Assembly: GCF_963506605.1 (NCBI RefSeq)
Contig: NC_083280.1
Location: 36,208,001-36,272,000, forward strand
Source: Zootoca vivipara
Lineage: Eukaryota
Reading direction: 5' to 3'
Length of the DNA: 64,000 nt
Shown here: piece by piece, positions 1 through 60,915 of the stretch
Position numbering within the stretch: position 1 is the stretch's first letter
How the letters are laid out: each line of letters begins with the position of its first letter
The notes under the pieces: model-generated
What the model was told of the DNA's origin: nothing
Databases searched by the model: none
The model's input: the letters and a program-made list of their open reading frames with translations, nothing else
Translations under genes and position numbers: made by a program

Positions 1-156
1 GAATCCCATAGGAATGCATTGGGAGAAAAAATTCGTAAGTCGAAGCAACCCTATCTAAAAATTCATAAGTAGAAAAAATCCTATCTAAACAGCATCCAAG
101 ATGGCGGACGGAGCTCCGTTCGTAAGTAGAGTTATTCGTAAGTAGAGGTACCACTG
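1..156. mobile_element. Tc1/mariner-type MITE, right part (same family as 33251-33493)
   Basis: Ends in TIR ...gtaagtagaggtaccactg followed by TA; near-identical to the corresponding part of 33251-33493. Confidence 0.85.
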
Positions 157-25114: not shown

Positions 25115-25476
25115 CCCAGGTGGCGCTGTGGGTTAAACCACAGAGTCTAGGGCTTGCTGATCAGAAGGTCGGCGGTTCGAATCCCTGCAACGGGGTGAGC
25201 TCCCGTTGCTTGGTCCCAGCTCCTGCCCACCTAGCAGTTAGAAAGCACATCAAAGTGCAAGTAGATAAATAGGAACCGCTCCGGCGGGAAGGTAAATGGC
25301 GTTTCCGTGCGCTGCTCTGGTTTGCCAGAAGCAGCTTTGTCATGCTGGCCACATGACCTGGAAGCTGTCTGCGGACAAACGCCGGCTCCCTCGGCCTATA
25401 GAGCAAGATGAGCGCCGCAACCCCAGAGTCGGACACGACTGGACCTGATGGTCAGGGGCCCCTTTACCTTTACCTT
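25115..25476 (+). mobile_element. Sauria SINE, near full length
   Basis: ggtggcgctgtgggttaaacc head, ACCTTT tail, TSD TAGAGGTATT. Confidence 0.9.
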
Positions 25477-25734
25477 TAGAGGTATTTTAGCAATACTAGA
25501 CTTGGACACAACTCTGCTTATGGTGAAACTGGTACAGCCCTCAAAGACAAATTGGTTGTATTTATATTTTGTTTCCACTGAATATGATGACTGACTTATT
25601 AGGAAAGGTTGGGATAAGAACAGAGAAAGCAATTGGCATAATCAGCAGGGTAAGAGCAGAAAATGCAGTTAACGTAACCAACAGATCACTTTTCACATAT
25701 GTCTGGAATAGTTCTGGGCTGAGCTTCAAAATCA

Positions 25735-29731: not shown

Positions 29732-30346
29732 CTCAGGAGAGGGGAGGAGAGGGGTTTAGTTTTGTTTTTACCATGGTACATGACTTACAGAATGGCCTCC
29801 CCAGGCTAGTTCAGTTGGTGCCAACTGTGATGTCATTATGACAACTGGGAAATACATTTTTATTCCTCATGGGCATTCCAGCACATAGTGTGAGGTAGTT
29901 TTTATCTGCTCTGCCGATCTTTCACTGCTGTTATTTGTTCTGCATCTTGCTTTCAACTGTGGTTTTTACCTATTTTTTTGTTTTATTCTTTTTTTATTGC
30001 ACTGGTAGTTTACTGGAGAGTGGCCTCTAGAAATCCCTTGGACCATGAATACCCAATGTGTTGCCCTCCAGATGCTATTAGACTACAACTCCCACCAACC
30101 CTAGCCAACGTGGTCAGTGGGATAATGGGAATTGTATTCCAGCAGCTTCTAGAGGGTGCCACTTTGTCTACCTTGCTTTTAGACAAATAATATTAATGAA
30201 TAATCTTCATTATATTTTAAAATAACCCTCTTTTCTAGAACAAAGAGAGGAATTAGGGGGAGCCACTGCGCTGGATGTTCCAGTAATTGAATGTGTTTTC
30301 TGCTTTCTCTTTTGAAACCCACCAATTTGGGACTTCGCTTTGGCAG

Positions 30347-30609
30347 GAGATGGAAACTTGCACCTGAACATCACAGCAGATTCCTACAGTCATTCCCTGC
30401 TGGAGACTATTGAGCCATTTGTGTATGAGTGGACTTCCCAGTACCGTGGGAGTATCAGCGCAGAGCATGGTCTGGGCTTCAAGAAGAAGCATTATATCCA
30501 CTACAGTAAGCCCCGGGAGGCCGTCCTTCTCATGCAGCAGTTCAAGGCCATGTTGGACCCCAAAGGGATTCTAAACCCTTACAAGACATTGCCGGATAAG
30601 GCTGCATGA
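30347..30609 (+). CDS. D2HGDH: D2HGDH last coding exon
   Basis: DGNLHLN...[13 protein letters not shown]...[17 protein letters not shown]; the 9 exons total 1683 nt = 560 aa + stop. Confidence 0.96.
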
Positions 30610-31100: not shown

Positions 31101-31596
31101 ACCTGTAATGAAAATATTACCTCAATTTCTCTACGTTTCAAAGCAGTCCTTCTTTATAGGTTCCCCATTCTACAAAAACTTAAGTTGGAGATTGGAAACC
31201 TGTGGCCCTCACATCACCCATCATTACTGACCATTGGCCATGTTTGCCTGGGATTGATGGGAGTTAGGAATCCAAAACATCCAAAGGGAGCACTGGGTTG
31301 GAAAAGGCTGCTCAAGTTGTCTTCCTCAACCGGGTGCCTTTCAGAGGTTTCAGAATACAACTGTCATCAACTCCACCTAACAGCCGGTCACTGTTCTGTG
31401 ACCGCTGAACATGTGTCCTCTCTTCATTGGGCTGTTTGGGTTTCCAACCCCCTCTTTCCCCCCCTTAAGAATATCTACTTCACTGAATGTTGGTGTTGCC
31501 TGAAGCTTGCTGCTACCTCCCATTTGTGGGTGGGTGGTACGTTATAATTTAGCTGCATAATGAGTCATACTTAGATGGTGAACATGCTATCCGTAT

Positions 31597-32088: not shown

Positions 32089-33068
32089 AACGCTCTCATG
32101 CAAGTACTTGATTGACACCCAGTGCCCTTTTAAATATGTTATGAGAGGGGGGATTATTGGTTTTTTTCTTTCTTGTTTTTATTATGTATTTTGTATTTTT
32201 AATATTGCAATTTTATGTTGTGGACCGCCTGGGATCTACTGGTGTAGGGCAACATACAAATTTAATAAATAATAATAATGACTTCAGCATGGCCATAGCT
32301 CAGAGGATGAACAACCCCCTACACTGACTTCCAGTTCCATCAGCCTGTGGCAGAGCTGTTGTGCTTGGCTCCCCATTGGCTCGGCTCCCCATTCAAGCCT
32401 CAGGTTGGCTTTTGGTGTATCTCCACAATCTGGTTGGGATGGAATAATAATAATAATAGTAATAATGATGATGATGATGATAAAGGTTTGCCTGTTCAGA
32501 ACTGGAGGAGTTACCATTTGGTCATCCTACTATAGTTAACTAGTGCCTCTGGCACTCATAGTTGAATTCAGCATGGCCATAGAACAAATGAATTCTGTTA
32601 ACTGTAGAAACTATTGTACTTTCCCAGGTGTGAAGTGTAGTCCTTTTACTCACAAGAATCTTGTTGTTTCATTCACAGAACATCCATCAAAGGTGGGTGG
32701 TAAATAAACAAATAAAAAGCAAGTGCCCTTTTAATGTGTAAAGAGAGGAGGATTAATGAGCAGCAAGTCCTGACTTCTGCCGCCTGGGGGTGCCATGACA
32801 GCTGCCGCCCTAGGGAGTAAACCACACTGGCTTTCAAATGAACACATGGTAGGCTTGTGTGAAAGTCCATCTTTTGAGGAAATGATTTGGAACTAATGTT
32901 GCTGATGAGAGTGGCATCCTTCCCAATACCATAGGAATCTTAAGTATTGTGCAGTATGTTGTTGTATTACAGTATGTTCTTTGTTTCACTGTTTGCAGTC
33001 CCTTTTAGACCGAGATTAACTACATAAGAAAGGCATCATTACTGATGACTGTACAGGGAAAGAAAATT

Positions 33069-33167
33069 CCGACCTGAGGGGCTCATCTTCCAGCGTCATA
33101 ACTTTTATATGCCTGTTGTCTTTGTCCATGGAGTTTTCTTGGCAGGGATACTGGAGTGGCTTGCCAG
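33069..33167 (-). mobile_element. BovB/RTE-like fragment abutting the GAL3ST2 relic
   Basis: cgacctgaggggctcatcttccag...gtccatggagttttcttggcagggatactggagtggcttgcca resembles BovB (recalled, not searched). Confidence 0.6.
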
Positions 33168-33936
33168 CTGATGCTGATTGCTGAATACTTTGATGAGTCC
33201 ATGATCCTTCTGAAGAATATGTTATGCTGGGACCTGGATGATGTGGTTTACAGTGGTACCTCTACTTACGAATTTAATGTGTTCCGAACACACATTTGTG
33301 AGTCGAAAAAAATTGTAAGTCGAATCCCATAGGAATGCATTGGGAGAAAAAATTCGTAAGTCGAAGCAACCCTATCTAAAAATTCGTAAGTAGAAAAAAT
33401 CCTATCTAAACCGCATCCAGGATGGCAGACGGAGCTCCATTTGTAAGTAGAAAAATTCGTAAGTAGAGTTATTTGTAAGTAGAGGTACCACTGTATTTCA
33501 AACTGAACACCAGGAGCTTAGTGTTTAGACTCTGAGTCCAGAAAACAAGGAAAAGGCGAGAGATTGGTGTGCTCTGGACTGGAAACTTTACACACATTTC
33601 AATAACACCTTTTGGATTAAGATCCAAGAGAGGATGGACATAAAGACTTTGTACAAGGAGGTCGAACTTCTGCAGAAGAGACAGAAGGAACTGATGGAGA
33701 TGTGCCTCTTGGAGGAAACAGCAGTTGATGGAAGCAAAATCATAGACAATAAACTGAAGCCCTTGCAGATGGGGTATGCGAAAATCTTGGGCTATAACCT
33801 CAAGAAGGATTTAGACAATAAGACCCAGACGATCTGCCAAAAGATGATCATGCCCGAGCTCCAGTATACAGCATATCTGTACAGTCACCAGTTCCCAAAC
33901 AAGACGAGAAAACCCATAGACTTCCCCACTCAATAA
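33168..33936 (+). pseudogene. GAL3ST2: Galactose-3-O-sulfotransferase 2 relic (3' half of last exon, disrupted)
   Basis: LMLIAEYFDESMILLKNMLCWDLDDVVY/FKLNTRS...WCALDWKLYTHFNNTFW...KILGYNLK...CQKMIMPELQY...QFP; MITE in the Tyr codon, frameshift, TAG at 33526-33528; syntenic position between D2HGDH and NEU4. Confidence 0.88.
33251..33493. mobile_element. 243-bp Tc1/mariner-type MITE inside the GAL3ST2 coding sequence
   Basis: TIRs cagtggtacctctacttac / gtaagtagaggtaccactg; TA TSD at 33249-33250 and 33494-33495. Confidence 0.92.
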
Positions 33937-35676
33937 AACAAGATTTGCTTATGATAAGGATATACAATTGTGCTGGTAATATAGGGCAATGTAGTCTCAC
34001 TGGAGGGCAAATGGGGCACTGCCCCACCCACCTCAGGATGCCCTCACTTGTCTACATTCCTATTTGCAACCAGTCCAGGGGGTGGAACTGGCTATTGTCT
34101 TAATTCCAACTAGCAGAACTGATTGGTTCTGCAAGCCATTGCCCCAGCTCCACCTACTGTTGGTCTCCCCCGCCCCTGCCCTGCCCCCGTCACAGTGGCC
34201 CAAGCCACCACTGTATAGTCTCAAGTCTCAGTGGTAAAAGACCCTGCCTAATTCGGCATCTTTGGTCTAATCCTCTTTTAAAGCCATCTAAATTGGTTGT
34301 CATCACTTTGCAGTGCTTTGGTCCCCAGTAGTTTGCAGCCACTCTTCTCTTTAGTACATACTGTATCAATAGATGAACCAGGTAATTTTATTCAATGTTA
34401 GTCAATGTGATGCTGTGATCTTCTAAATATGGGATGGGAACACATATTACAACTCACTGAATGACTATTTTTATAGAAGGTTCAAGTTCCCACAGCCTTG
34501 TACATGGTTTCATCATCCTTTAGTCAGTTTTGCTCTTATGCTGGAGAGTTACTAGATAACCATTATGGCTCTGAACCATGAGGCCCTCTGAAATCAATTT
34601 CCTGCAACGTATTGAAAGCTCATTTTGTTTTGGTTTCATTCCATCTTCTAGGCCTTCAGTTGTCACAGTCCCCTTTGTCCTCAGGTTTCTGCTCCTTGCT
34701 TTGTTTAGTCTCCGCCTCCCCACTTTTCTTAATGGGAACATTTGGACTCGGCTCAGTGAACTGGAAGTAACTCTGTCAGCATGAATCCTAGTCGCATAAC
34801 ATGTCAATTGATTTGTGACTGAAATCAAAATACAAGAAAGTCTAGCCTATGTTAACAGCTGCTCCAGTTCAAGAAAAACAGCAGTTTAAGTCCCCCAATG
34901 CATGGGGGTTAGAAATGAGGAAGAAATTAGAATCAGTTCCCACTCAAAGGTATGCCAACCAACTTCATACTTCCTGAAACAATGCAAGAACCAAATCACA
35001 GCCATCCTTCAAAATCTGCACTTCTCCAAATTTTGCAATGCAGTTTTCCAGGCAAGTACAAGAATGCATATAGTAGGGTCAAGTTGCATAAAATGCATAT
35101 GTTAGTTGTCAGCTGAACAGTGCTAGCTTATGCATCTTTACTTTGAAGTAAGTCCCACTGTGTTCAGCGAGACTTACTCTCTAGTAAGTATGTTTAGGAT
35201 TGCAGCCTGAAGCAATTTTTGTAAAGGCTGGGGAAAGCTTGACAAAATGCAGAAGATGAGGGTCAAGATGATGGCGAAGGTGAAGGGCACTGCAAAACAC
35301 CTGAACAAAAATTGTTTGCTAGCATGAAGGACATGAGGATAATGCTAATTCCTGTTTCTGAGGTTCTAAGGTACTGCAACCATGTGCCATTTTCTTTTTC
35401 TTTTGAACGGTGGTCACAAACTGTTATTTTCCACCACTTATTTAACATAAGCAAACACATATTGCACCAATTATTATTATTATTTTAAAAAAGGTTTGTG
35501 CAAATGAACTAGGCTCCAAGGCTGGCCCTATCATTAGACAGCTTTTTCGGGTGTCATGAATGGTCATCAAACTGTTGTTTAGTTAATTATTATTGTACTT
35601 TTGCAGGGAGAGAGAAACCATAGAGCTTTCTCTCTCAGGTGCCCAAGTAACTTGGCTGGCCATGGGCACTCTAAAC

Positions 35677-35812: not shown

Positions 35813-36517
35813 CTCTAAACCTTGTTTAATGCTGATAAAAGGTTCAAAAAGATAAACAAATGGAACCAGGTTAGCTTTGCCATGGTTAAATGTCTTTCTA
35901 ATGTCTGTATTAAATGTATTTTAATGTAGTTTTAATCTCTGTTGGAAGCCGCCCAGAGTGGCTGGGGAAACCCAGCCATATGGGCAGGGTACAAATAATA
36001 AATTATTATTATTATTAAAATTATTACTAACATCTTTATCAAAAACCTGGAAATATAGAGTACAAGCTCCCTGCAATGTTTCTAGATACAAGCAACATAA
36101 TTGCCTGATGAGAACAGTTTAATGACATGAGCAGCTTTTCATTAGGAAATAATGCATTCTGTTTATCAATAAACTATCAGAGGCATATGGACTGCAGCTA
36201 ACATTGTGTGTACTCATAATGTGTACTCTGGTGGGGCTGCATTGGAGTCAGAGTAAATGGTACTTAATGTGTACACAGTCAAAGTCAATAAATTCTGATG
36301 CTTACACCCTCTCATCGAAGCATCCTCCAAACATAAATATCAGTTGCCATCTGGTACCCTATCCAGGTCACCCATCCTACTTCACGGACCTTCGGGGTTG
36401 TCTAGTTCAAGTACCGTATTTTTCTTACAGTTCTTAATCTCTAAAGAAGGAACAGCAGGCAAGTCTTGAAATTGCCCAACAGCCAAACAGAGAATTATAG
36501 GTAGGTAGTTATATTAG

Positions 36518-36857
36518 GGACGCAGGTGGCGCTGTGGGTTAAACCACAGAGCCTAGGGCTTGCTGATCAGAAGGTCGGTGGTTCGAATCCCCGCGACGGG
36601 GTGAGCTCCTGTTGCTCGGTCTCTGCTCCTGCCAACCTAGCAGTTCAAAAGCACATCAAAGTGCAAGTAGATAAATAGGTACCGCTACAGCGGGAAGGTA
36701 AACAGTGTTTCTGTGTGCTGCTCTGGTTCGCCATGCTTTGTCATGCTGGCCACATGCTGGCCACATGACCCGGAAGCTCCCTCGGCCAATAACGCGAGAT
36801 GAGCGCCGCAACCCCAGAGTCGGTCACGACTGGACCTAATGGTCAGGGGTCCCTTTT
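36518..36857 (+). mobile_element. Sauria SINE
   Basis: gggacgcaggtggcgctgtgggttaaacc head and full body. Confidence 0.88.
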
Positions 36858-39106: not shown

Positions 39107-39465
39107 GGTAAAGGTAAAGGCCATAAAGTAAAGGTAAAGGGACCCCTGACCATTAGGTCCAGTCGTGACCGACTCTGGGGTTGTGGCGCTCATCTCGCGT
39201 TATTGGCTGAGGGAGCCGGCATACAGCTTCCAGGTCATGTGGCCAACATGACAAAGCCGCTTCTGGTGAACCAGAGCAGCACACGGAAACGCTGTTTACC
39301 TTACCTATTTATCTACTTGCACTTTGACGTGCTTTCGAACTGCTAGGTGGGCAGGAGCTGGACTGAGCAACGGGAGCTCACCCCGTCGCAGGGATTCGAA
39401 CCGCTGACCTTCTGATCGGCAAGCCCTAGGCTCAGTGGTTTATCCCACAGCGCCACCTGCGTCCC
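39107..39465 (-). mobile_element. Sauria SINE
   Basis: (AAAGGT)n tail at left, head at right. Confidence 0.88.
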
Positions 39466-40031
39466 TATTAAAAAATAGTCATAAGTAAAAAAAAATACAT
39501 TATAATTTGAACATATTCAAATGAAGACATATACAAGTAATAAAAATTAGAAAAAGCAAAAAACAAAAAAACAAACCCCATAACAACAGTAGAAAGCTTT
39601 GGAAGCACACTAGCAGAAAACAACACCATCATCATTCATCCAAAATCTGGGGGAAATGTACTTTTTTTCCTGGCACTGAAAAAAATGTCAGCGAAGGCGC
39701 AAGGCAGACCTCACTGTTCCACAAAGAGGGTTTATTAAAAGAATTCGAACAGGCCTGCAGCAAGTTCTCTCCTAGGTCAGGAGTGGGGAACCTATAGCCT
39801 CCCAGAAGTTGTTGGACTCCAACTCCCATCATCCCCAACCCAACATGGCTGGCTATCGGAGATTATGGGAGTAGCAGTGCAACAACATGTGAAGAGCCGC
39901 AAGTTCCCCATCCTTGTCCTCAGCCAAAGGAAGGGATGGAATTAGGTGTTGTGAGGCTTGGGTGCACATTGATTTGCTGTCCTTGAAGACAACACACACC
40001 CTTCAAAGATTTCACAGGTTCTCTGCTTACA

Positions 40032-40752: not shown

Positions 40753-41278
40753 TGACAGGACTGAAACTTAAGGCGTAGAGGAAATTATCTGTGACATCCT
40801 TGTGAGTTTCCCACAGGCATCTGGTTGGCCACTTTGAGAAGAGGATGCTGGACTAGATGGGCCTGATCTAGCGGACTGTTCTTGTATCTGTCTCTGCGAT
40901 GCGCTTTCTTTGCCACTTCTTTTGTTGTCAGGAATAATATAACTGGTGCCTCTTGATACTCTAAAACTCCCACCTTGTTCAGCCACACATATAGCAACCG
41001 TAATAACCAAGAATGGACCAGAGCAAATTAAATGATCAATATAGTAGTGCCTCTGGTTATGAACTTAATTCCTTGCGGAGGTCCATTCTTAACCTGAAAT
41101 TGTTCTTAACCTGAGGTTTATACCTGGTTTCTCTTTAAGGTTTCCAGACTCAAAAGAGAGCAGGGCAATTAAAGGCACAGAAGTCCTGTTCTCTATTGAG
41201 TCTGGAAACCCTACCGGTAGATGCCGGGGAAGAAAAATGAATTGGCTTCCTAACTCTTTTACCATCTTTCTTTGCCAG

Positions 41279-41534
41279 TGGGAAGATATGCGAGCCCTTG
41301 AAACAGCAACTCTGGCACACCATCGGTCCATGAACCCTTGCCCTATCTATGATGAGCTTACAGGCATGGTTTTCTTGTTTTTCATTGCTGTCCTGGGCAG
41401 AACCCCTGAAGCCTTTCAGATCATCACAGGCCAAAATGCTGCCCGCCTCTGCTACGTGTCTAGTTCTGACCAGGGCATCAGCTGGAGCCATGTGACTGAT
41501 CTCACCCAGCAAGTTATTGGCGTGTCCATTGAAG
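41279..41534 (+). CDS. NEU4: NEU4 coding exon 2
   Basis: HRSMNPCPIYD...SSSDQGISW Asp box. Confidence 0.95.
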
Positions 41535-42758
41535 GTACGAGACACAGGAGCAGTTTACTTAATGAATGAATTATGAAATGTATATACCACCTTTGCTCCC
41601 AAAGGAATCCACAGTGACAACCAAGAAGCAACAAAACAATATTAATAATAACAAATCTTTAAAGCATCTTAAAAATAATTTAAATACAGATCCAGGCTGG
41701 GAAAGATCTCATCTTAAAAGATCTGTTGAAAGAGAATATGGTCTTTAGCAGGATGACAGCATACTTACCAACTGACCCACTTCCCACTGTGACAGTACAG
41801 CAGCCATTTGGAGCACTTTGGTCTCACACAATTTCAGGCCAAGAACTTGCTCCCCGCCCCCAGCCCCAGCACCTTTTCTGGGCCCGCAATCTTGCACAGG
41901 ATTTTGGACCAGGAAAATGGTGTCCTGGATTTGGGCCCCATTGTGTTGGAGGGTGTGAAACACAGACAGTGCCTGCCTATTATTCATGGGGAGGGAATTT
42001 AAAGGGTTGGTATCAGAACACTAAAGGCCCAATTCCTACATTGTCTGGACTAGACCTCCAGATAAGGTGGTATCTATAGGAAGCTTTCCCCTGCAGAGCA
42101 CAGTGATCAACTAGATATATAAGTGGTGAGATGATCTTTTATGTTAATAAAGGAGAAGGAATGGAAAAGGGATACATTTAATGAGCATTCATTCTGATTC
42201 ATTTGTGAGGAGGTTGGGTGATGTTGCATCAAAGCAAGCAACTTGGCTGACACTTTTTTCATTGTAAAAGCTTTGATATTTGGGGAGAGAGGGTTTGTTG
42301 CACAAGAGCTCCCAACCAACTATAACTATGCTATCCGAATTTGTTGGTTTGTGACAGTGGCAATCTGGGAATGCCTAAAGAGTTTTGTGGCACCTCAAAG
42401 AGTAACACATTTATCAATTTATTATAACTTATCCAGAAGTTTGATTGTTTCCATGTGGCATTAAATCACAACAATGGTTTTTTGTCCCACTAGAGGTGTT
42501 CACTGACAGAGCAAAGTTTGGATGAGTGTGCTATCAGCTTTCTGTTCATTTTGCATACCAAAAAGCTTTAATTGAATTGTCACAGACTATGTAGTTTGAA
42601 CTTCATTGCCATTTGATCCCACTGTTTGCAACTTTATTTCTTGACATGTCCTCCTCACTTGTCAAATGAGAACAAAACTTCATGCATCTGATGAAGTGGA
42701 CTCTGTTATACAAAAGCTGGCGCCATAATAAATGTGAACTTCATTGCCACTTAGTGGA

Positions 42759-42945
42759 AGGGCTGTAGCTCAGCGGTAGAGAATGTACCTTTCATGCAGA
42801 AGGTCCCAGGTTCAATCCCTGGCATCTCTAGGTAGGACTGGGAGAGACTCCCTCTCTGAAAGCCTGGAGACCTGTTGTCAGTCAGCGCAGGCAGTCCTGA
42901 GCTAGATGGACCAATGTGTCTGACTCCATATAAAGCAGTTTATAT
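42759..42945 (+). mobile_element. tRNA-derived squamate SINE (Squam3-like)
   Basis: gggctgtagctcagcggtagag...ggttcaatccctggcatctc head, then SINE body. Confidence 0.72.
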
Positions 42946-42995
42946 TCATGACTGTTGTCATTGTTCCTGACACTGTCTTTTCCCTTTTGCTTCAG

Positions 42996-44047
42996 ACTGG
43001 GCCACTTTTGCGCTAGGCCCCGGGCACGGCATTCAACTGAAGTCAGGCCGCCTGCTATTGCCAGCCTATGCTTACCACATCGACTGCAAAGAGTGCTTTG
43101 GGAAGCTCTGCAAAACCACCCCTCATGCTTTCACCTTCTACAGCGATGACCACGGGCAGAGCTGGCAGTTTGGCGAGTTCATCCCAAACCTGCAGACCGT
43201 CGAGTGCCAGATGGTGTCGGTGGATGAGGAGGACGGCAGCAACGTGCTCTACTGCAACGCCAGGAGTCCTCTGGGCTTCCGGGTGCAGGCCCTCAGCACG
43301 GATGATGGGGCCGTATTTCACTCAGGCCAGCTGGTGCAGCGGCTTGTGGAGACCCCGCACGGTTGCCATGGCAGCATCATCGGGTTCCCAGCTCCGCTTT
43401 ACTATTTGCAGCGCAACACTTGCGTATTCCAGAGAGACACCCGCTCTGATAAAGATGTGGGCTTCCTACCTCAGGGTTGGTCTGATGAGAAACACCCACC
43501 TAGTCTTGCCTCACCTACCCCTTTTTTCTGCAGCCAGTCTCTGAGCCACCGACAGCCTCAGGAAACAAGAACTTCTAGTGTCTGCTCTGGTCACCTCTCA
43601 TCAGGTAAAGGACATGCTGATCCAGAACATGCTAAAGCTGGAAGTATTTCGCAATCGGGCTTTTCTTTCCAAATGCCAACGTGGGTGCTGTATTGCCACC
43701 CAACGAGCTCCAGATCCCGAGTCAACCTGGGGATTTACCTCAGCACCTTTCCTAGGGATGCTGAGAGCTGGACTGAGCCCTGGGTTATTTACGAAGGCCC
43801 CAGCGCCTACTCCGACCTGGCCTACATTGAGCTGCCTTATCCAGACTTGTCAATAACTGGGATCCCAGCCATAGCTTTTGCCTGCCTGTATGAGAACGGG
43901 GTGCGGTCCCCCTATGAGCAAATATCCTTCAGCATGTTCACGTTGCATGAAGTTCTTCAGAACATTCCTCTCGCAACTTCTGCCCCAGGTTTGAAGCAGC
44001 CGTCAGGTGGTAGAAAGAGAAAGGGGAAGAGTTGTGTTATTTCTTAA
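42996..44047 (+). CDS. NEU4: NEU4 last coding exon
   Basis: WATFALGPGHGIQL; Asp boxes SDDHGQSW and STDDGAVF; NEU4-type Ser/Pro-rich insert; EGPSAYSDL; the 3 exons total 1509 nt = 502 aa + stop. Confidence 0.96.
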
Positions 44048-44334: not shown

Positions 44335-44791
44335 GCTCTATTTGAAAATCATTAGAATATCTTTCTTCTGGTTGAAGGAATAATACAAAACCCCTACAAG
44401 TAGGAAAGCATAATGCAAAAGCCCATGGGATTCTTTCCAAAAGAATTATCTCAGATATCCATTCAAACTCCAGTTCCTATGCTATCACCACTACTTTGCT
44501 TTCAAACAATGAAACACACAAAGTAGAGAAAGCGACCTATGCACTTAGACCAGCCTTCTGTATTGGCTTTTTGGAGGGGGGCGGGAGCAGGGGGGGGCAG
44601 GGAGTGGGAAATCCCCTATGTGCCAAATGGATGCTGATATCAGCTAAAGGGATTTCATTCAGGACAGTGGTATTAGCTGTATACCCCCTGCCCGGCACCA
44701 GCACCTTATGCATAAAAAAACCAACCCTGCACATTAGATGCAAAGACACATAAATGTCACATCTACTTTAGCCCTGTAGTAAGAGAGTGAA

Positions 44792-45140
44792 GGGACCCAG
44801 GTGGCACTGTGGGTTAAACCACTGAGCCTAGGGATCAGAAGGTCGGCGGTTTGGATCCCTGTGACGGCGTGAGCTCCCGTTGCTTGGTCCCAGCTCCTGC
44901 CAACCTAGCAGTTCGAAAGCACGTCAAAGTGCAAGTAGACAAATAGGAACCGCTATAGCGGGAAGGTAAACGGCGTTTCCATGTGCTGCTCTGGTTTGTC
45001 AGAAGCGGCTTTGTCATGCTGGCCACATGACCTGGAAGCTATACGCCGGCTCCCTCGGCCAATAATGCGAGATGAGCGTGCAACCCCAGAGTCGGTCACG
45101 ACTGGACCTAATGGTCAGGGGTCCCTCTACCTTTACCTTT
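44792..45140 (+). mobile_element. Sauria SINE, full length
   Basis: TSD AAGAGAGTGAA at 44781-44791 and 45141-45151. Confidence 0.92.
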
Positions 45141-46303
45141 AAGAGAGTGAAACCTGTCAATTTTCTTAAAGCTCTTCCTGAGCAATCAGGACCTGACTAG
45201 CTTGGGCCTGCCACCTGCTGGCCAATGCTTGACCATTGTGTCTAGAAGAAATTTCTTCCCTGGGACAATAAAAAGGATGGGTTTCCAAGTCAGGCTCTAG
45301 AGAGCTCCTCTAGATTGCTGCTTTATTGCAGGTGTATTCTGCAACAAACTCTTAACAATAGTGCATTAGTGGTGGATGTTTTTTCTGCTTTAGTTTGTTG
45401 TGGAATGAGTGCTTCCCCAAAGCTTCCAGGTTATTGCTGCCTGGGAGGGGCTATAGCACAACCGAAGCAGAACAAAAATAAACCAGAACATTTGTGGTAT
45501 AAAAAGTTACAGCATTTCAGCAGGAAGTTACAGGATATGCACTGAATGGAATTACTACCCCAAAGCGTTTTCAGGTACAAAAAAACAGGATCGCATGTGA
45601 CTGCCTGATAGCATAATGAACACAAATAAAAAGGATGTCTGGAGAGGACCTTTGACCCAATATTAGGGCATTAGTGGCGGATTTCTTCTGCCTTTGGGGG
45701 AGGAGCTGTTACCAATTACCCATTCATGATGTCTCAAAAACCTGTTTACAATATTAAGCCATCATCTGAAAACTCCCTTTGTTTTTGAGGTGAGGTGAGG
45801 CAATAGTGTTACAGTACAGTCAATTCAGGTGTGTAAGGATTGTGTCACAACTGAAGTGAAAAATAAACACTTGAGGGAAGTGGAGGACAATGGGGAAATT
45901 ATGGAGAATGCAACCATCCAGAATGAATGCTATCTGACTTCTCAGAAATAAAAAGAGTGGGTGAATGGTATCAGAAATGAAGAAAAGTGGCACCACGGTG
46001 ACATCTGGTAGCCTTGAAATCTATTATAATAAGTATCTTTGGCTGAAATCACTTTTAAAATGTATAGAAAAATAGGTATCTTTATTTATTTTCACACAAG
46101 TTTTTAGCAGCTTCAATCAACAAGGCCACCTATCATGATGGCAATTAACACAAAACAAGGTCTGAACATAACACACCAAGGCAATTGTTTTCTGACAAGT
46201 TTTGAATGTTGTGGAAGAAGAAATACAGGTCATCCCACTCAAAATATACCCCCTTCTCTCTCGAAAATAATAAGTCTCCTGAACCTACTCTTGTAACAGA
46301 AGG

Positions 46304-49028: not shown

Positions 49029-49218
49029 CTATTTCTTTTCACATAAGCCACAGAAACATCCAAAAAAGCCATTGATGATCTGGAGAACAGCAAGGACCAT
49101 TTCCACTGTGCTGATGATTAAGAGAGCCGAGAAGAAATAGACATTCCAGCTCACAATATTATGTGGCTCGATGCACACTTTGTTCCAAAGGGGAGGATCA
49201 TACAAATAATTTTGAGTC
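49029..49218 (-). CDS. TM4SF19: Transmembrane 4 L6 family protein (TM4SF19-like), coding exon 4
   Basis: TQNYLYDPPLWNKVCIEPHNIVSWNVYFFSALL...INGFFGCFCGLCEKK-TAG. Confidence 0.8.
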
Positions 49219-49580
49219 CTTAAAGGAACAGATTTTGAATGAGAAAGTTGCAAGTGAAGAGACATTATAAACGAAGGATAAGGGAAAGCTGTTCAATCAG
49301 GAGATGTTATTTTTTGTACATTTTAAAATAATAATAATTTATTACTCATACCCTATTCCTCTGACTGGGTTGCCCCAGCCACTCTGGGAGGCTTCCAACA
49401 GAATATTAGAGAAAGATTAGGTAAAGATTTCCGGATTTACTGGGTTACTGAGTATGCTATCCTGTGCACCATTTTTCCTTGAATGGTTTTACACTTACAA
49501 TATAATATTAAATCTTGTCTTCGCTGGTTGCATTGTCTCAAGATCCATGTGGTTGCCCTTCCAACATCATCATTGTAGAA

Positions 49581-56165: not shown

Positions 56166-56518
56166 CAAAGGTAAAGGTAAAGGGACCCCTGACCATTAGG
56201 TCCAGTCGTGACTGACTCTGGGGTTGTGGCGCTCATCTCGCGTTATTGGCCGAGGCGTATAGCTTCCAGGTCATGTGGCTAGCATGACTAAGCCGCTTCT
56301 GGCGAACCAGAGCAGCACACGGAAACATTGTTTACCTTCCCGCTGTAGCGGTTCCTATTTATCTACTTGCACTTTGATGTGCTTTCGAACTGCTAGGTTG
56401 GCAGGAGCTGGGACCAAGCAACGGGAGCTCACCCCATCACGGGGATTTGAACCGCCGACCTTCTGATCGGCAAGCCCTAGGCTCTGTGGTTTAACCCACA
56501 GCGCCACTCGCGTACCCT
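56166..56518 (-). mobile_element. Sauria SINE
   Basis: (AAAGGT)n tail and body. Confidence 0.88.
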
Positions 56519-57547
56519 AGTGCTATAGCACAACAAAGGCAAAATAATAGTAACTATCAGAACATCTGAGGTACAAAAAAACCATAGGATTTCACACAGC
56601 AATTGTTAATGAAGCAGCATGGCCATCCTCAAACTTTTACAGGCACAAATAGCATTGGATGCAGGAGTGCATATAACCACCCTGGTACCTGCAAGTCAAG
56701 AGCACAAATAATCATGAATGCACAATAGAAAGGACACCCAGAGCCCCCCCTTCCCCATTCCTTGTTGTTATTCTCTCCCCCAGGTGGATGGTTTTCATTG
56801 CCTTGTCCTATTTTCCCAATACACAGCTTCTCCTTAGGTCACAAAATTGGTAGCTGAGTCTGAGTCTGTTTGGGAAAAGATGCTCCCCTACCCAAATCCC
56901 ATATAACTGCTGTCTCTTTAGGCAATAACTCCAAAAACCTATGGAAATTCCACAAAGCATGATATCCTGTACAAAACACCCCTTACCACACCCATGTAAT
57001 TCAACATGGCCCTTTCCCTCTGGAGACTTATGGCTATATGGTTTTTTAAAAAAACACATATCGGTATTCCTTACTCCCAAAGAAATTCCAGAAGGATGTA
57101 TACAACTTAGTGAATTCAAACAGTTACAGTCGGAGATTATACAGGACTCTCACATACCCACACATGCCAGCACCTGGTGAAGAAGACCTCTTTATTTCAG
57201 CTGGCATTTCAAGTAAACAACCCCCCCCCCGCCCCAACATACATACCAAGTTTATAGTTAATTTTATCTAGTTATACTTGTTTATTTCATAAAATTTATA
57301 AACCGCTTGATTGCAAGAAACCTCAATGCGGTTTACAAAAAGATTAGAGAAAAAGATAATTTTGTCTCCGTTCTGTTGCCTTCTTGCACACTAGTTAGAG
57401 ACTATGGGTTGCCATTTGTCCTCTTTATTCTGGACAGGTCCTCATTTCATGAAAGTCATCATAGCGATCCATAGTTAAAAGCAGAAGTCAGCAAATGTGT
57501 TCTCTTTTTTGCTCCCTAAAATACGGCAACTCTAAAAGTTGTATATA

Positions 57548-59670: not shown

Positions 59671-59720
<50 letters not shown>
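59671..59720. repeat. (CA)n microsatellite
   Basis: Seen directly; abuts the SINE head. Confidence 0.9.
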
Positions 59721-59725
<5 letters not shown>

Positions 59726-60067
59726 GCGCTGTGGTCTAAACCACTGAGCCTAGGGCTTGCCAATCAGAAGGTCGGCGGTTCGAATCCCCACGACGGGGTG
59801 AGCTCCCGTTGCTCGGTCCCAGCTCCTGCCAACCTAGCAGTTCGAAAGCACGTCAAAAGTGCAAATAGATAAATAGGTACCGCTCCGGCGGGAAGGTAAA
59901 TGACATTTCTGTGCGCTGCTCTGGTTCACCAGAAGTGGCTTAGTTATGCTGGCCACATGACCCAGAAGCTGTCTGTGGACAAACGTCGGCTCCCTCGGCC
60001 TATAGAGTGAGATGAGCGCCGCAACCCCAGAGTCGTCCGCTAACAGTCAGGGGTACCTTTACCTTTA
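59720..60067 (+). mobile_element. Sauria SINE embedded in a CA repeat
   Basis: ggtggcgctgtggtctaaacc head; ACCTTT tail. Confidence 0.88.
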
Positions 60068-60915
60068 CAGTGCACACACACGCACACACACAACTCACCA
60101 CACTGAAACAGCTGAAGTGTATAAATCACATTGCGATTTTCAGGGGGTGGAGGAAGAGGAAGGTTTGTTTTTGGCATTACTGGGGAAATGTTGCAACTCA
60201 CTCTTGTGTTCCAGCTACGTCACGTCAGCCACACAACTCTCTGTTTGGATCAGCTGTTTTGAGAGCAAGTCTGTTGTGGTGTTTTCCACTTTCACATTCC
60301 AGGCACTTCATATAGTGTTCGAACTCCTACAGAGTTCACACCAGTGCTAACAAGCGAACTACCACATGCTGATGTATCATCAACAGTAGCTGGCCTGGTG
60401 CCACTTATAAAACCACCGTGACAGCTGTCAATTGCGGAAGAGCTCAGAGTGCTATTTATTTATTATTGCATTCATAAATTATTATTGCAGATTGAGTGCC
60501 TGAATGCTATAGCAAGAATTTTAAAGTGATGGCCTAGCAGGGTGTGGATGGCGTGGGGCAATATTTGTACCCCAAGATATTTTGCGGCCTGAGACAGAGC
60601 AGCATATGTTGCCCCCCCCATAGGTCAGTGTGTATAGTACCCAAGGCTGGCCACATTTTGTGGGGAAGTGAGGCAGAAAAACCAAAAAGCCTCTGTTCTC
60701 CTCTGACACACAAAAATGGTAACCGTAATAAATTAACCAATAATTTGCAAAGCCATATGTGAAATCGGCTTGCCTCACTCTACCTAGTGGGAGAACCAGC
60801 CTGTTCCACTTCAGGCAGCAAAATGTTTTTGACCATTAATGCCAGTTGCCAAAGCAAGATTTTAGCAAAGCAAACCTGCACACACACACACACACCAAAA
60901 AGGGCATAAAATAAC

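What the first reader, a model, noticed from the sequence alone, without database searches (positions are those of the whole stretch)
33069..33936. GAL3ST2 reduced to a multiply disrupted relic at its syntenic position
Seen: four lesions. (1) A 243-bp MITE with TA TSD splits a Tyr codon (GTT TA|MITE|TA T TTC = V-Y-F). (2) An 11-nt gap after TRS shifts the frame. (3) A TAG lies at 33526. (4) Homology begins abruptly at 33168 against a BovB-like fragment; I found no 5'-PAPS-binding FLKTHKT motif or TM exon between D2HGDH and NEU4. The remaining 3' frame (33529-33936) is still open, suggesting recent loss. Known: GAL3ST2 sulfates C3 of terminal galactose, the position also used by alpha-2,3 sialylation, and lies between D2HGDH and NEU4 in mammals. 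Inference: lineage-specific loss that could shift sulfo- versus sialo-glycans unless a paralogue compensates.
Basis: partly seen in the sequence, partly recalled or inferred. Interest (0 to 1): 0.7.

Follow-up and report, generated by a model that had tools for sequence, protein, structure and literature searches.

The report
Wall lizard's recently broken GAL3ST2 gene
In this lizard the gene for a sugar-sulfating enzyme (GAL3ST2) has lost its front half and is further broken by a jumping element and a frameshift that two close relatives lack, so the gene is dead here and likely died recently, but related enzymes remain and any effect on the animal is untested.

Summary
The loss is real. The GAL3ST2 orthologue between D2HGDH and a sialidase gene (NEU4 by position) survives only as the last two-thirds of its final exon, and no other piece of it was found in the genome.

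The TAG is present in only one of three same-species runs, so it is the youngest lesion. Homology starts at 33164, overlapping an internal 102-nt LINE fragment by 4 nt.

All three same-species runs carry the MITE junction and the frameshift. Two relatives about 3% diverged lack the MITE, one with an RNA contig that reads straight through. That brackets the loss between about 3% and about 1% divergence.

An ancient GAL3ST2-like paralogue with an open catalytic region lies 178 kb away, and four to five other family genes remain. A shift from sulfated to sialylated glycans is plausible but untested. There are hints of wider decay in Podarcis: the P. raffonei model lacks the front exons and changes invariant residues. 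No report was found in print or in this scan's notes. Verdict: a well-dated but ordinary gene loss.

The parts
30345..30609 (+). Last coding exon of D2HGDH, the upstream syntenic neighbour
   Evidence: Pfam FAD-oxidase_C E 3.9e-28; best PDB match human D2HGDH 6lpn, E 6.6e-35; exon start from a spliced contig of organism C
31487..31534 (+). Match to residues 1-16 of the P. muralis GAL3ST2 gene model (predicted 5' exon, not seen in the other squamate proteins tested)
   Evidence: tblastn 15 of 16 identical, E 0.001
32634..32696 (+). Match to residues 17-37 of the P. muralis model; last surviving piece before the deletion
   Evidence: tblastn 18 of 21 identical, E 3.6e-5; not covered by organism C's RNA contigs
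33066..33167 (-). Internal 102-nt fragment from the 5' region of a young LINE, standing where the front half of the gene was; 4-5 nt overlap with native DNA at each end
   Evidence: 101 of 102 identical to copies L033/L034, which carry an endonuclease ORF about 120 nt downstream on the same strand; organism B's contig leaves the window at 33070; the name BovB is recalled, not tested
33164..33250 (+). First surviving part of the last GAL3ST2 exon (from codon 218 of P0001 into the Tyr codon)
   Evidence: Pfam PF06990 positions 240-269, E 6.1e-11; 0 differences over 85 nt from organism C's contig
33251..33493 (.). 243-bp MITE with TA duplication (33249-33250 and 33494-33495)
   Evidence: absent in organism C (joint skips 245) and organism B
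33496..33528 (+). Exon continuation with the 4-nt deletion behind 33519 and the polymorphic TAG at 33526-33528
33529..33936 (+). Open 3' frame, residues 259-393 of GAL3ST2 and stop
   Evidence: Pfam PF06990 E 6.7e-38; nests with Podarcis GAL3ST2, support 100/99
41093..44047 (+). Sialidase gene (two coding exons seen), NEU4 by position; downstream syntenic neighbour
   Evidence: Pfam BNR_2; PDB sialidase-2 E 9e-44; NEU4 follows GAL3ST2 in human, mouse and chicken (PMC9971977, passage)

Best explanation
This is the dead remnant of the GAL3ST2 orthologue: its front 217 codons are gone, a MITE and a 4-nt deletion break what is left, and the gene likely died after this species split from relatives about 3% diverged and before its own populations diverged by about 1%. 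Shown: the lesions, the orthology, the absence of another copy, the MITE junction and frameshift in three same-species runs, and the uninterrupted state in two relatives. Inferred: the large deletion was closed by microhomology-type end joining that left or captured a LINE fragment, and it probably also removed the usual first exon. Which of the three shared lesions came first cannot be told; the TAG came last. The loss was probably tolerated because selection was already weak or the linked GAL3ST2-like paralogue and GAL3ST4 cover part of the job. The predicted effect is less 3-O-sulfated and more sialylated terminal galactose in mucosal glycans; this is untested.
For: Orthology: gene order and tree. 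No other copy: 11 of 11 family matches in the genome are assigned, 2 to the relic and 9 to other clades; no further piece in 262 kb without N around the locus. Not an assembly error: at 33526 each of X2, X4 and X6 (three studies) shows a single contig at about single-copy depth that begins 21-22 nt inside the MITE end and has no 4-nt gap; contigs of all three run from unique DNA 30-47 nt into the LINE fragment. Relatives: organism B's contig has 669 unlike bases before 33494, 4 gap letters and C at 33526. Organism C's 4,519-nt contig skips the MITE, has AGAC and CAG and 786 further bases upstream, enough for 650 coding nt plus a leader. Dating: 68 of 2350 (2.9%) differences to B, 42 of 1309 (3.2%) to C, 0.35-0.95% within the species. 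The MITE differs from the majority of 9 near copies at 3 of 243 sites, the LINE piece from its best copy at 1 of 102. RNA: 0 depth over 33600-33871 in raw run X21.
Against: The MITE-side overlaps (21-26 nt) are below the tool's 31-letter bar for bridging, X6's LINE overlap is 30 nt, and these are contigs, not raw DNA reads. X2 shares a study code with the best holder of the window, so only X4 and X6 are independent of it. One X4 contig spans LINE piece, exon and MITE start but has 524 unlike bases before 33118 and 12 gap letters, so the 5' deletion may differ between haplotypes (unresolved). The RNA blank is weak: about 6% of one run of unknown tissue was read, with D2HGDH itself at depth 2-5. 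The upstream 786 nt of organism C's contig were not seen, so its full reading frame is inferred. Compensation and glycan change have no direct evidence.
Confidence: 0.9

Rival explanations
1. The loss is one case of wider decay: GAL3ST2 has been under relaxed selection across wall lizards and is being lost more than once.
For: The P. raffonei model (P0102, 276 aa) lacks the TM and FLKTHKT exons and changes Tyr147 and Arg252 (each invariant in 27 of 27 other proteins) and Asn348 (26 of 27); it reads through the MITE and frameshift sites, so a loss there would be independent. Between the relic and organism C the listed coding differences are 11 amino-acid-changing to 2 silent (omega about 1.2; P 0.006 against omega 0.2), and C changes Lys386 (26 of 27 conserved). 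Position 339 is Ser, Ala or Gly in 26 of 27 others but Leu, Val or Met in the three Podarcis proteins and the relic.
Against: Only 15 of the 23 differences of that contig were listed; the other 8 are assumed to lie in the 3' UTR. The contrast with the D2HGDH control exon (4:3) is not significant (Fisher P 0.29), and C's own changes (5:2 in the worst case) do not reject omega 0.2 (P 0.18). P0102 is a gene model and may be mis-annotated. P. lilfordi and P. muralis have full-length proteins.
Confidence: 0.3
2. The relic is a dead partial duplicate or a null allele, and a working GAL3ST2 exists elsewhere in the genome or on other haplotypes.
For: The assembly may be incomplete; the TAG is polymorphic; one X4 contig has 524 bases not in the window; the gene is triplicated in mice (PMC9971977, passage).
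Against: No second orthologous sequence in two genome searches. One contig per run at 33526, each starting inside the MITE, in 3 of 3 same-species runs. The relic sits at the orthologous position.
Confidence: 0.06
3. The open 3' frame is kept for a new use, for example as a short protein or as part of a D2HGDH read-through transcript.
For: The frame is open for 135 codons and has an ATG at 33634 giving 100 aa. D2HGDH ends 2.6 kb upstream, and a D2HGDH-GAL3ST2 read-through RNA is reported in human cells (PMC8798317, table row and reference title).
Against: Both PAPS-binding motifs and the TM segment are gone. An open frame is expected about half the time at this age. No reads over the frame in X21. 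No AG tested between 33470 and 33560 has a strong pyrimidine tract, at most 11 of 17.
Confidence: 0.03
4. The loss was adaptive, removing a sulfated glycan used by a parasite or microbe.
For: GAL3ST2 changes the glycans that viruses bind in human cells (PMC12974462, abstract); rapid amino-acid change in the group.
Against: No test of selection was possible. In that paper the enzyme restricts infection, so loss would be expected to cost. Drift under weak selection explains the same data.
Confidence: 0.05

Closest known systems
GAL3ST2 (galactose-3-O-sulfotransferase 2, Pfam PF06990) of Podarcis lilfordi (CAI5775456.1) and P. muralis (XP_077786990.1)
   Same: 91-92% identical over the open 3' frame, same clade (100/99); the flanking genes are those reported for human, mouse and chicken
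   Different: Residues 1-217 absent; MITE, 4-nt deletion and a polymorphic stop; cannot encode an active enzyme
GAL3ST2-like paralogue of sauropsids and amphibians (e.g. Varanus P0105, Alligator P0108, Larus P0098)
   Same: Same Pfam family; present in this genome at C5:36.42 Mb with an open catalytic region and a GT-AG phase-0 intron; shares a scaffold with GAL3ST2 in Varanus, Egretta and Indicator, judged by equal contig lengths
   Different: About 48% identical to GAL3ST2, in a clade that also holds frog and teleost proteins; long stem region; substrate and expression unknown
Lineage-specific losses of terminal-glycan enzymes, e.g. mouse Fut3 pseudogene (PMC9971977, passage) and CMAH or GGTA1 losses (recalled)
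   Same: A single Golgi or sugar-modifying gene is disabled in one lineage and is predicted to change terminal glycans
   Different: Here the loss is very young, several paralogues remain, and no glycan phenotype is known
Tc1/mariner-type MITEs (class name recalled from the TA duplication and terminal repeats)
   Same: Short, non-coding, TIRs, TA duplication, many near-identical copies
   Different: The autonomous partner was not sought

Membership tests
GAL3ST2 orthologue | PF06990 domain sequence | tested here: met
   Two pieces, E 6.1e-11 and 6.7e-38
GAL3ST2 orthologue | Groups with named GAL3ST2 proteins, not with paralogues | tested here: met
   With Podarcis 100/99, Rhineura 100/98, squamates 100/99; the relic fills only 40% of the columns; no mammal protein was in the tree
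GAL3ST2 orthologue | Position between D2HGDH and NEU4 | tested here: met
   the sialidase is NEU4 by position, its paralogue identity was not tested separately
Active GAL3ST enzyme | Type II TM anchor and both PAPS-binding motifs in one frame | tested here: not met
   Residues 1-217 absent; motif roles are recalled; no solved GAL3ST structure matched
Unitary pseudogene | Disabling lesions at the native locus | tested here: met
Unitary pseudogene | No working copy of the same gene in the genome | tested here: met
   11 of 11 matches assigned; holds for this assembly
Unitary pseudogene | Working orthologue in relatives | tested here: met
   Full-length proteins in two Podarcis species and over 20 squamate entries; read-through RNA contig in organism C; activity not tested
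Unitary pseudogene | Null allele fixed in the species | tested here: inconclusive
   3 of 3 runs laid, out of 13 same-species DNA-like holders listed; contigs drop rare variants
MITE | Short, TIRs, target duplication, high copy number | tested here: met
   243 bp, 22 of 23 TIR, TA; 2322 candidates, 39 of 39 other scored copies 98% identical; 8 of 9 fetched copies flanked by TA, one misaligned by an indel
BovB/RTE LINE | Part of a non-LTR element with an endonuclease ORF | tested here: met
   Exo_endo_phos on the same strand in L033, L034 and L036, 3 of 7 loci; L033 and L034 are near-identical duplicates
BovB/RTE LINE | RT of the RTE clade, similarity to BovB consensus | not testable with these tools
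   No repeat library; the RT ORF found in L033/L034 lies on the opposite strand and belongs to another element

The most novel reading that the evidence does not exclude
GAL3ST2 is being shed repeatedly across the wall-lizard radiation: deleted in this species, independently crippled in P. raffonei and drifting in others. Sister species about 3% apart would then form a natural knockout series for galactose-3-O-sulfation of mucosal glycans and would test whether the unstudied GAL3ST2-like paralogue does the same job.
Probability: 0.25. Interest if true: 0.55.

Novelty: new member of a known kind. Interest (0 to 1): 0.3.

Why it matters
GAL3ST2 is described as the only human enzyme with strong activity on type 1 Lewis chains, and the mouse gene is triplicated, which hampers study (PMC9971977, passages). 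A vertebrate that lacks it, beside close relatives that keep it, is a usable natural comparison for sulfated versus sialylated mucus and for the role of the GAL3ST2-like paralogue. The locus also shows a gene dying in steps, with the last lesion still segregating. It does not reveal a new mechanism: single-gene losses with surviving paralogues are common.

Tried and rejected
Run search: no RNA holder listed on record. RNA contigs of X16 (same species) cover neither D2HGDH nor the relic, so they say nothing; X19 (organism E) has only a 182-nt piece of the 3' frame at depth 4.6.

Dating by the MITE copy at 1-156: rejected (93% identical, partial). The open 3' frame as proof of recency: rejected. 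An 11-nt deletion: rejected.

A search for truncated relatives of 74-237 aa found only 2 unnamed proteins at 68-69%. Neither search listed a lacertid other than the three Podarcis; this is no evidence of absence. No PDB match for GAL3ST2 at E up to 1.

The TM exon of the paralogue was not found by homology; one of 8 hydrophobic stretches, near C5:36,428,118, is a plausible candidate only. The names of the two C17 genes (GAL3ST1 and GAL3ST3 by recall) and of the C16 gene could not be checked (searches gave no result).

Literature: 'GAL3ST2'+'lizard' 0 papers; 'GAL3ST2'+'gene loss' 0; 'GAL3ST2'+'pseudogene' 20, none about a loss by title or abstract start among the 19 listed; 'Podarcis'+'pseudogen'+'sulfotransferase' 1, unrelated by title; family evolution 12, none relevant by title. 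Supplementary tables of genome papers were not searched and could list this loss.

Full report
What is there. Translation of 33000-34100 shows two pieces of a galactose-3-O-sulfotransferase in different frames, both scored by Pfam PF06990. The best protein match is Podarcis lilfordi GAL3ST2 (P0001, 393 aa). The relic covers residues 218-393. In a tree of 37 proteins it nests with three Podarcis proteins (100/99) inside squamate GAL3ST2. The animal is therefore probably a wall lizard or a very close lacertid. Nine of 123 long frames of the window have Pfam matches: four D2HGDH-type, two GAL3ST, two sialidase and one L6 membrane protein; PDB searches name D2HGDH and a sialidase. NEU4 follows GAL3ST2 in human, mouse and chicken (PMC9971977, passages), and D2HGDH-GAL3ST2 is a read-through RNA of adjacent genes in human cells (PMC8798317, table row and reference title). 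The position is the native one.

The lesions. The MITE spans 33251-33493 with a TA duplication and splits the Tyr codon. With it removed in the script, the frame runs through F-K-L-N-T-R-S and then shifts. Eleven bases stand where Podarcis has fifteen, and organism C's contig supplies the missing AGAC. The TAG replaces a Gln codon. The front 217 codons are absent from the interval, from 262 kb around it and from the genome. In their place is a 102-nt internal LINE fragment, about nt 140-240 of the element, without a 3' end. It overlaps native DNA by 4 nt on the right (CCAG, shown by organism C starting at 33164) and about 5 nt on the left (organism B's match ends at 33070). Such overlaps suggest microhomology-type end joining; that is inference. 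Capture of a filler and trimming of a longer insertion are both possible. The deletion holds at least 650 coding nt plus introns; its full size is unknown.

Other individuals and species. Four DNA runs were laid. In X2, X4 and X6, labelled as the same organism and from three studies, one contig covers 33526. Each starts 21-22 nt inside the MITE end and has no 4-nt gap, at about single-copy depth. These overlaps are below the tool's 31-letter bar, but they recur in all three. All three also join unique DNA to the left end of the LINE fragment. The TAG is T in X2 only. Organism B lacks the LINE fragment at the left junction, has 669 unlike bases before 33494, four gap letters and Gln. In the RNA lay, organism C has a spliced D2HGDH contig and a 4,519-nt contig that skips the MITE and continues 786 nt upstream; those bases were not displayed, so its intact frame is inferred from length. 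That contig does not include the two P. muralis model exons, so the usual first exon probably lay inside the deletion. Raw RNA run X21 has no depth over the unique part of the relic, but D2HGDH is only at depth 2-5, so silence is weakly supported. One unexplained X4 contig has 524 unlike bases before 33118.

Timing. From the listed contig pieces (4 of 8 rows for B, 6 of 8 for X4, 3 of 8 for C, all 8 for X2 and X6; short or repeat rows and the odd X4 contig dropped), the window differs from B by 2.9%, from C by 3.2%, and from X4, X6 and X2 by 0.95, 0.84 and 0.35%. The shared lesions fall between these splits. The MITE (3 of 243 from the majority of its nearest copies) and the LINE piece (1 of 102) agree with that; both comparisons use the best-matching copies and so lean young. 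The order among deletion, MITE and frameshift is open; the stop is last.

What remains in the family. Besides the relic the genome has six family genes. One lies 178 kb away on the opposite strand. It has both catalytic exons open with a GT-AG intron in frame and a long stem, and belongs to a 'GAL3ST2-like' clade of reptiles, birds, amphibians and fish. It is an old paralogue about 48% identical, not the displaced orthologue. Two near-identical GAL3ST4-clade copies lie 19 kb apart on C13. Three more lie on C16 and C17. In human cells GAL3ST2 sulfates core 1 and core 2 chains and presumably competes with sialylation, while GAL3ST4 covers core 1 only (PMC8789585, passages); raising GAL3ST2 lowers surface sialic acid (PMC12974462, abstract). 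So the predicted glycan shift is reasonable, and so is compensation. Neither is shown.

Wider decay. The P. raffonei model lacks the front exons and alters Tyr147 and Arg252, invariant in 27 of 27 other proteins. The relic and organism C differ by 11 replacement and 2 silent changes among those listed, but the control contrast is not significant (P 0.29) and 8 differences were not displayed. This is a lead.

Verdict. A real, recent, lineage-restricted unitary pseudogene, not found in the searches listed under Tried and rejected, of a well-known kind. Interest 0.3; about 0.55 if repeated loss across Podarcis is confirmed.

Noticed in passing
G000:C13:54474241-54476872 and 54493375-54496006 (L005/L010, L006/L009): Two GAL3ST4-clade copies 19 kb apart, 99.9% identical over 3.8 kb with identical last-exon protein: a very recent tandem duplication or an assembly duplication.
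   Followed up: partly
G000:C5:36419652-36424528 (L012, L013): GAL3ST2-like paralogue whose motif exon lies in a 375-codon open frame with a long low-complexity stem; candidate TM exon near 36,428,118. An old, apparently unstudied family member.
   Followed up: partly
P0102 (P. raffonei XP_053243417.1): 276-aa model without TM and FLKTHKT exons and with changes at invariant residues; possibly an independent loss.
   Followed up: partly
window 33118-33276, run X4 record 22: Contig with 524 bases unlike the window before 33118 and 12 gap letters, at about 60% of single-copy depth; possibly a haplotype with a longer or different junction.
   Followed up: no
window 49032-49292 (-): Exon of an L6 membrane (TM4SF) protein downstream of the sialidase gene.
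   Followed up: no
window 1-156: Partial relative of the same MITE, 93% identical, cut by the window edge.
   Followed up: partly
G000:C18:6242785-6245886 and 7016454-7019555 (L034, L033): Inverted pair 99.97% identical over at least 3.1 kb, 0.77 Mb apart, holding a LINE 5' end and an RT fragment on the other strand.
   Followed up: no
window 33932 and 34123: 33932 is A only in the window (G in all four DNA runs and organism C); 29 bases at 34123 are absent in X2 and X4.
   Followed up: no
window 25115-25478, 36509-36856, 39125-39473, 44791-45141, 56167-56519, 59717-60068: Six copies of a roughly 350-bp interspersed repeat, 80-89% identical.
   Followed up: no
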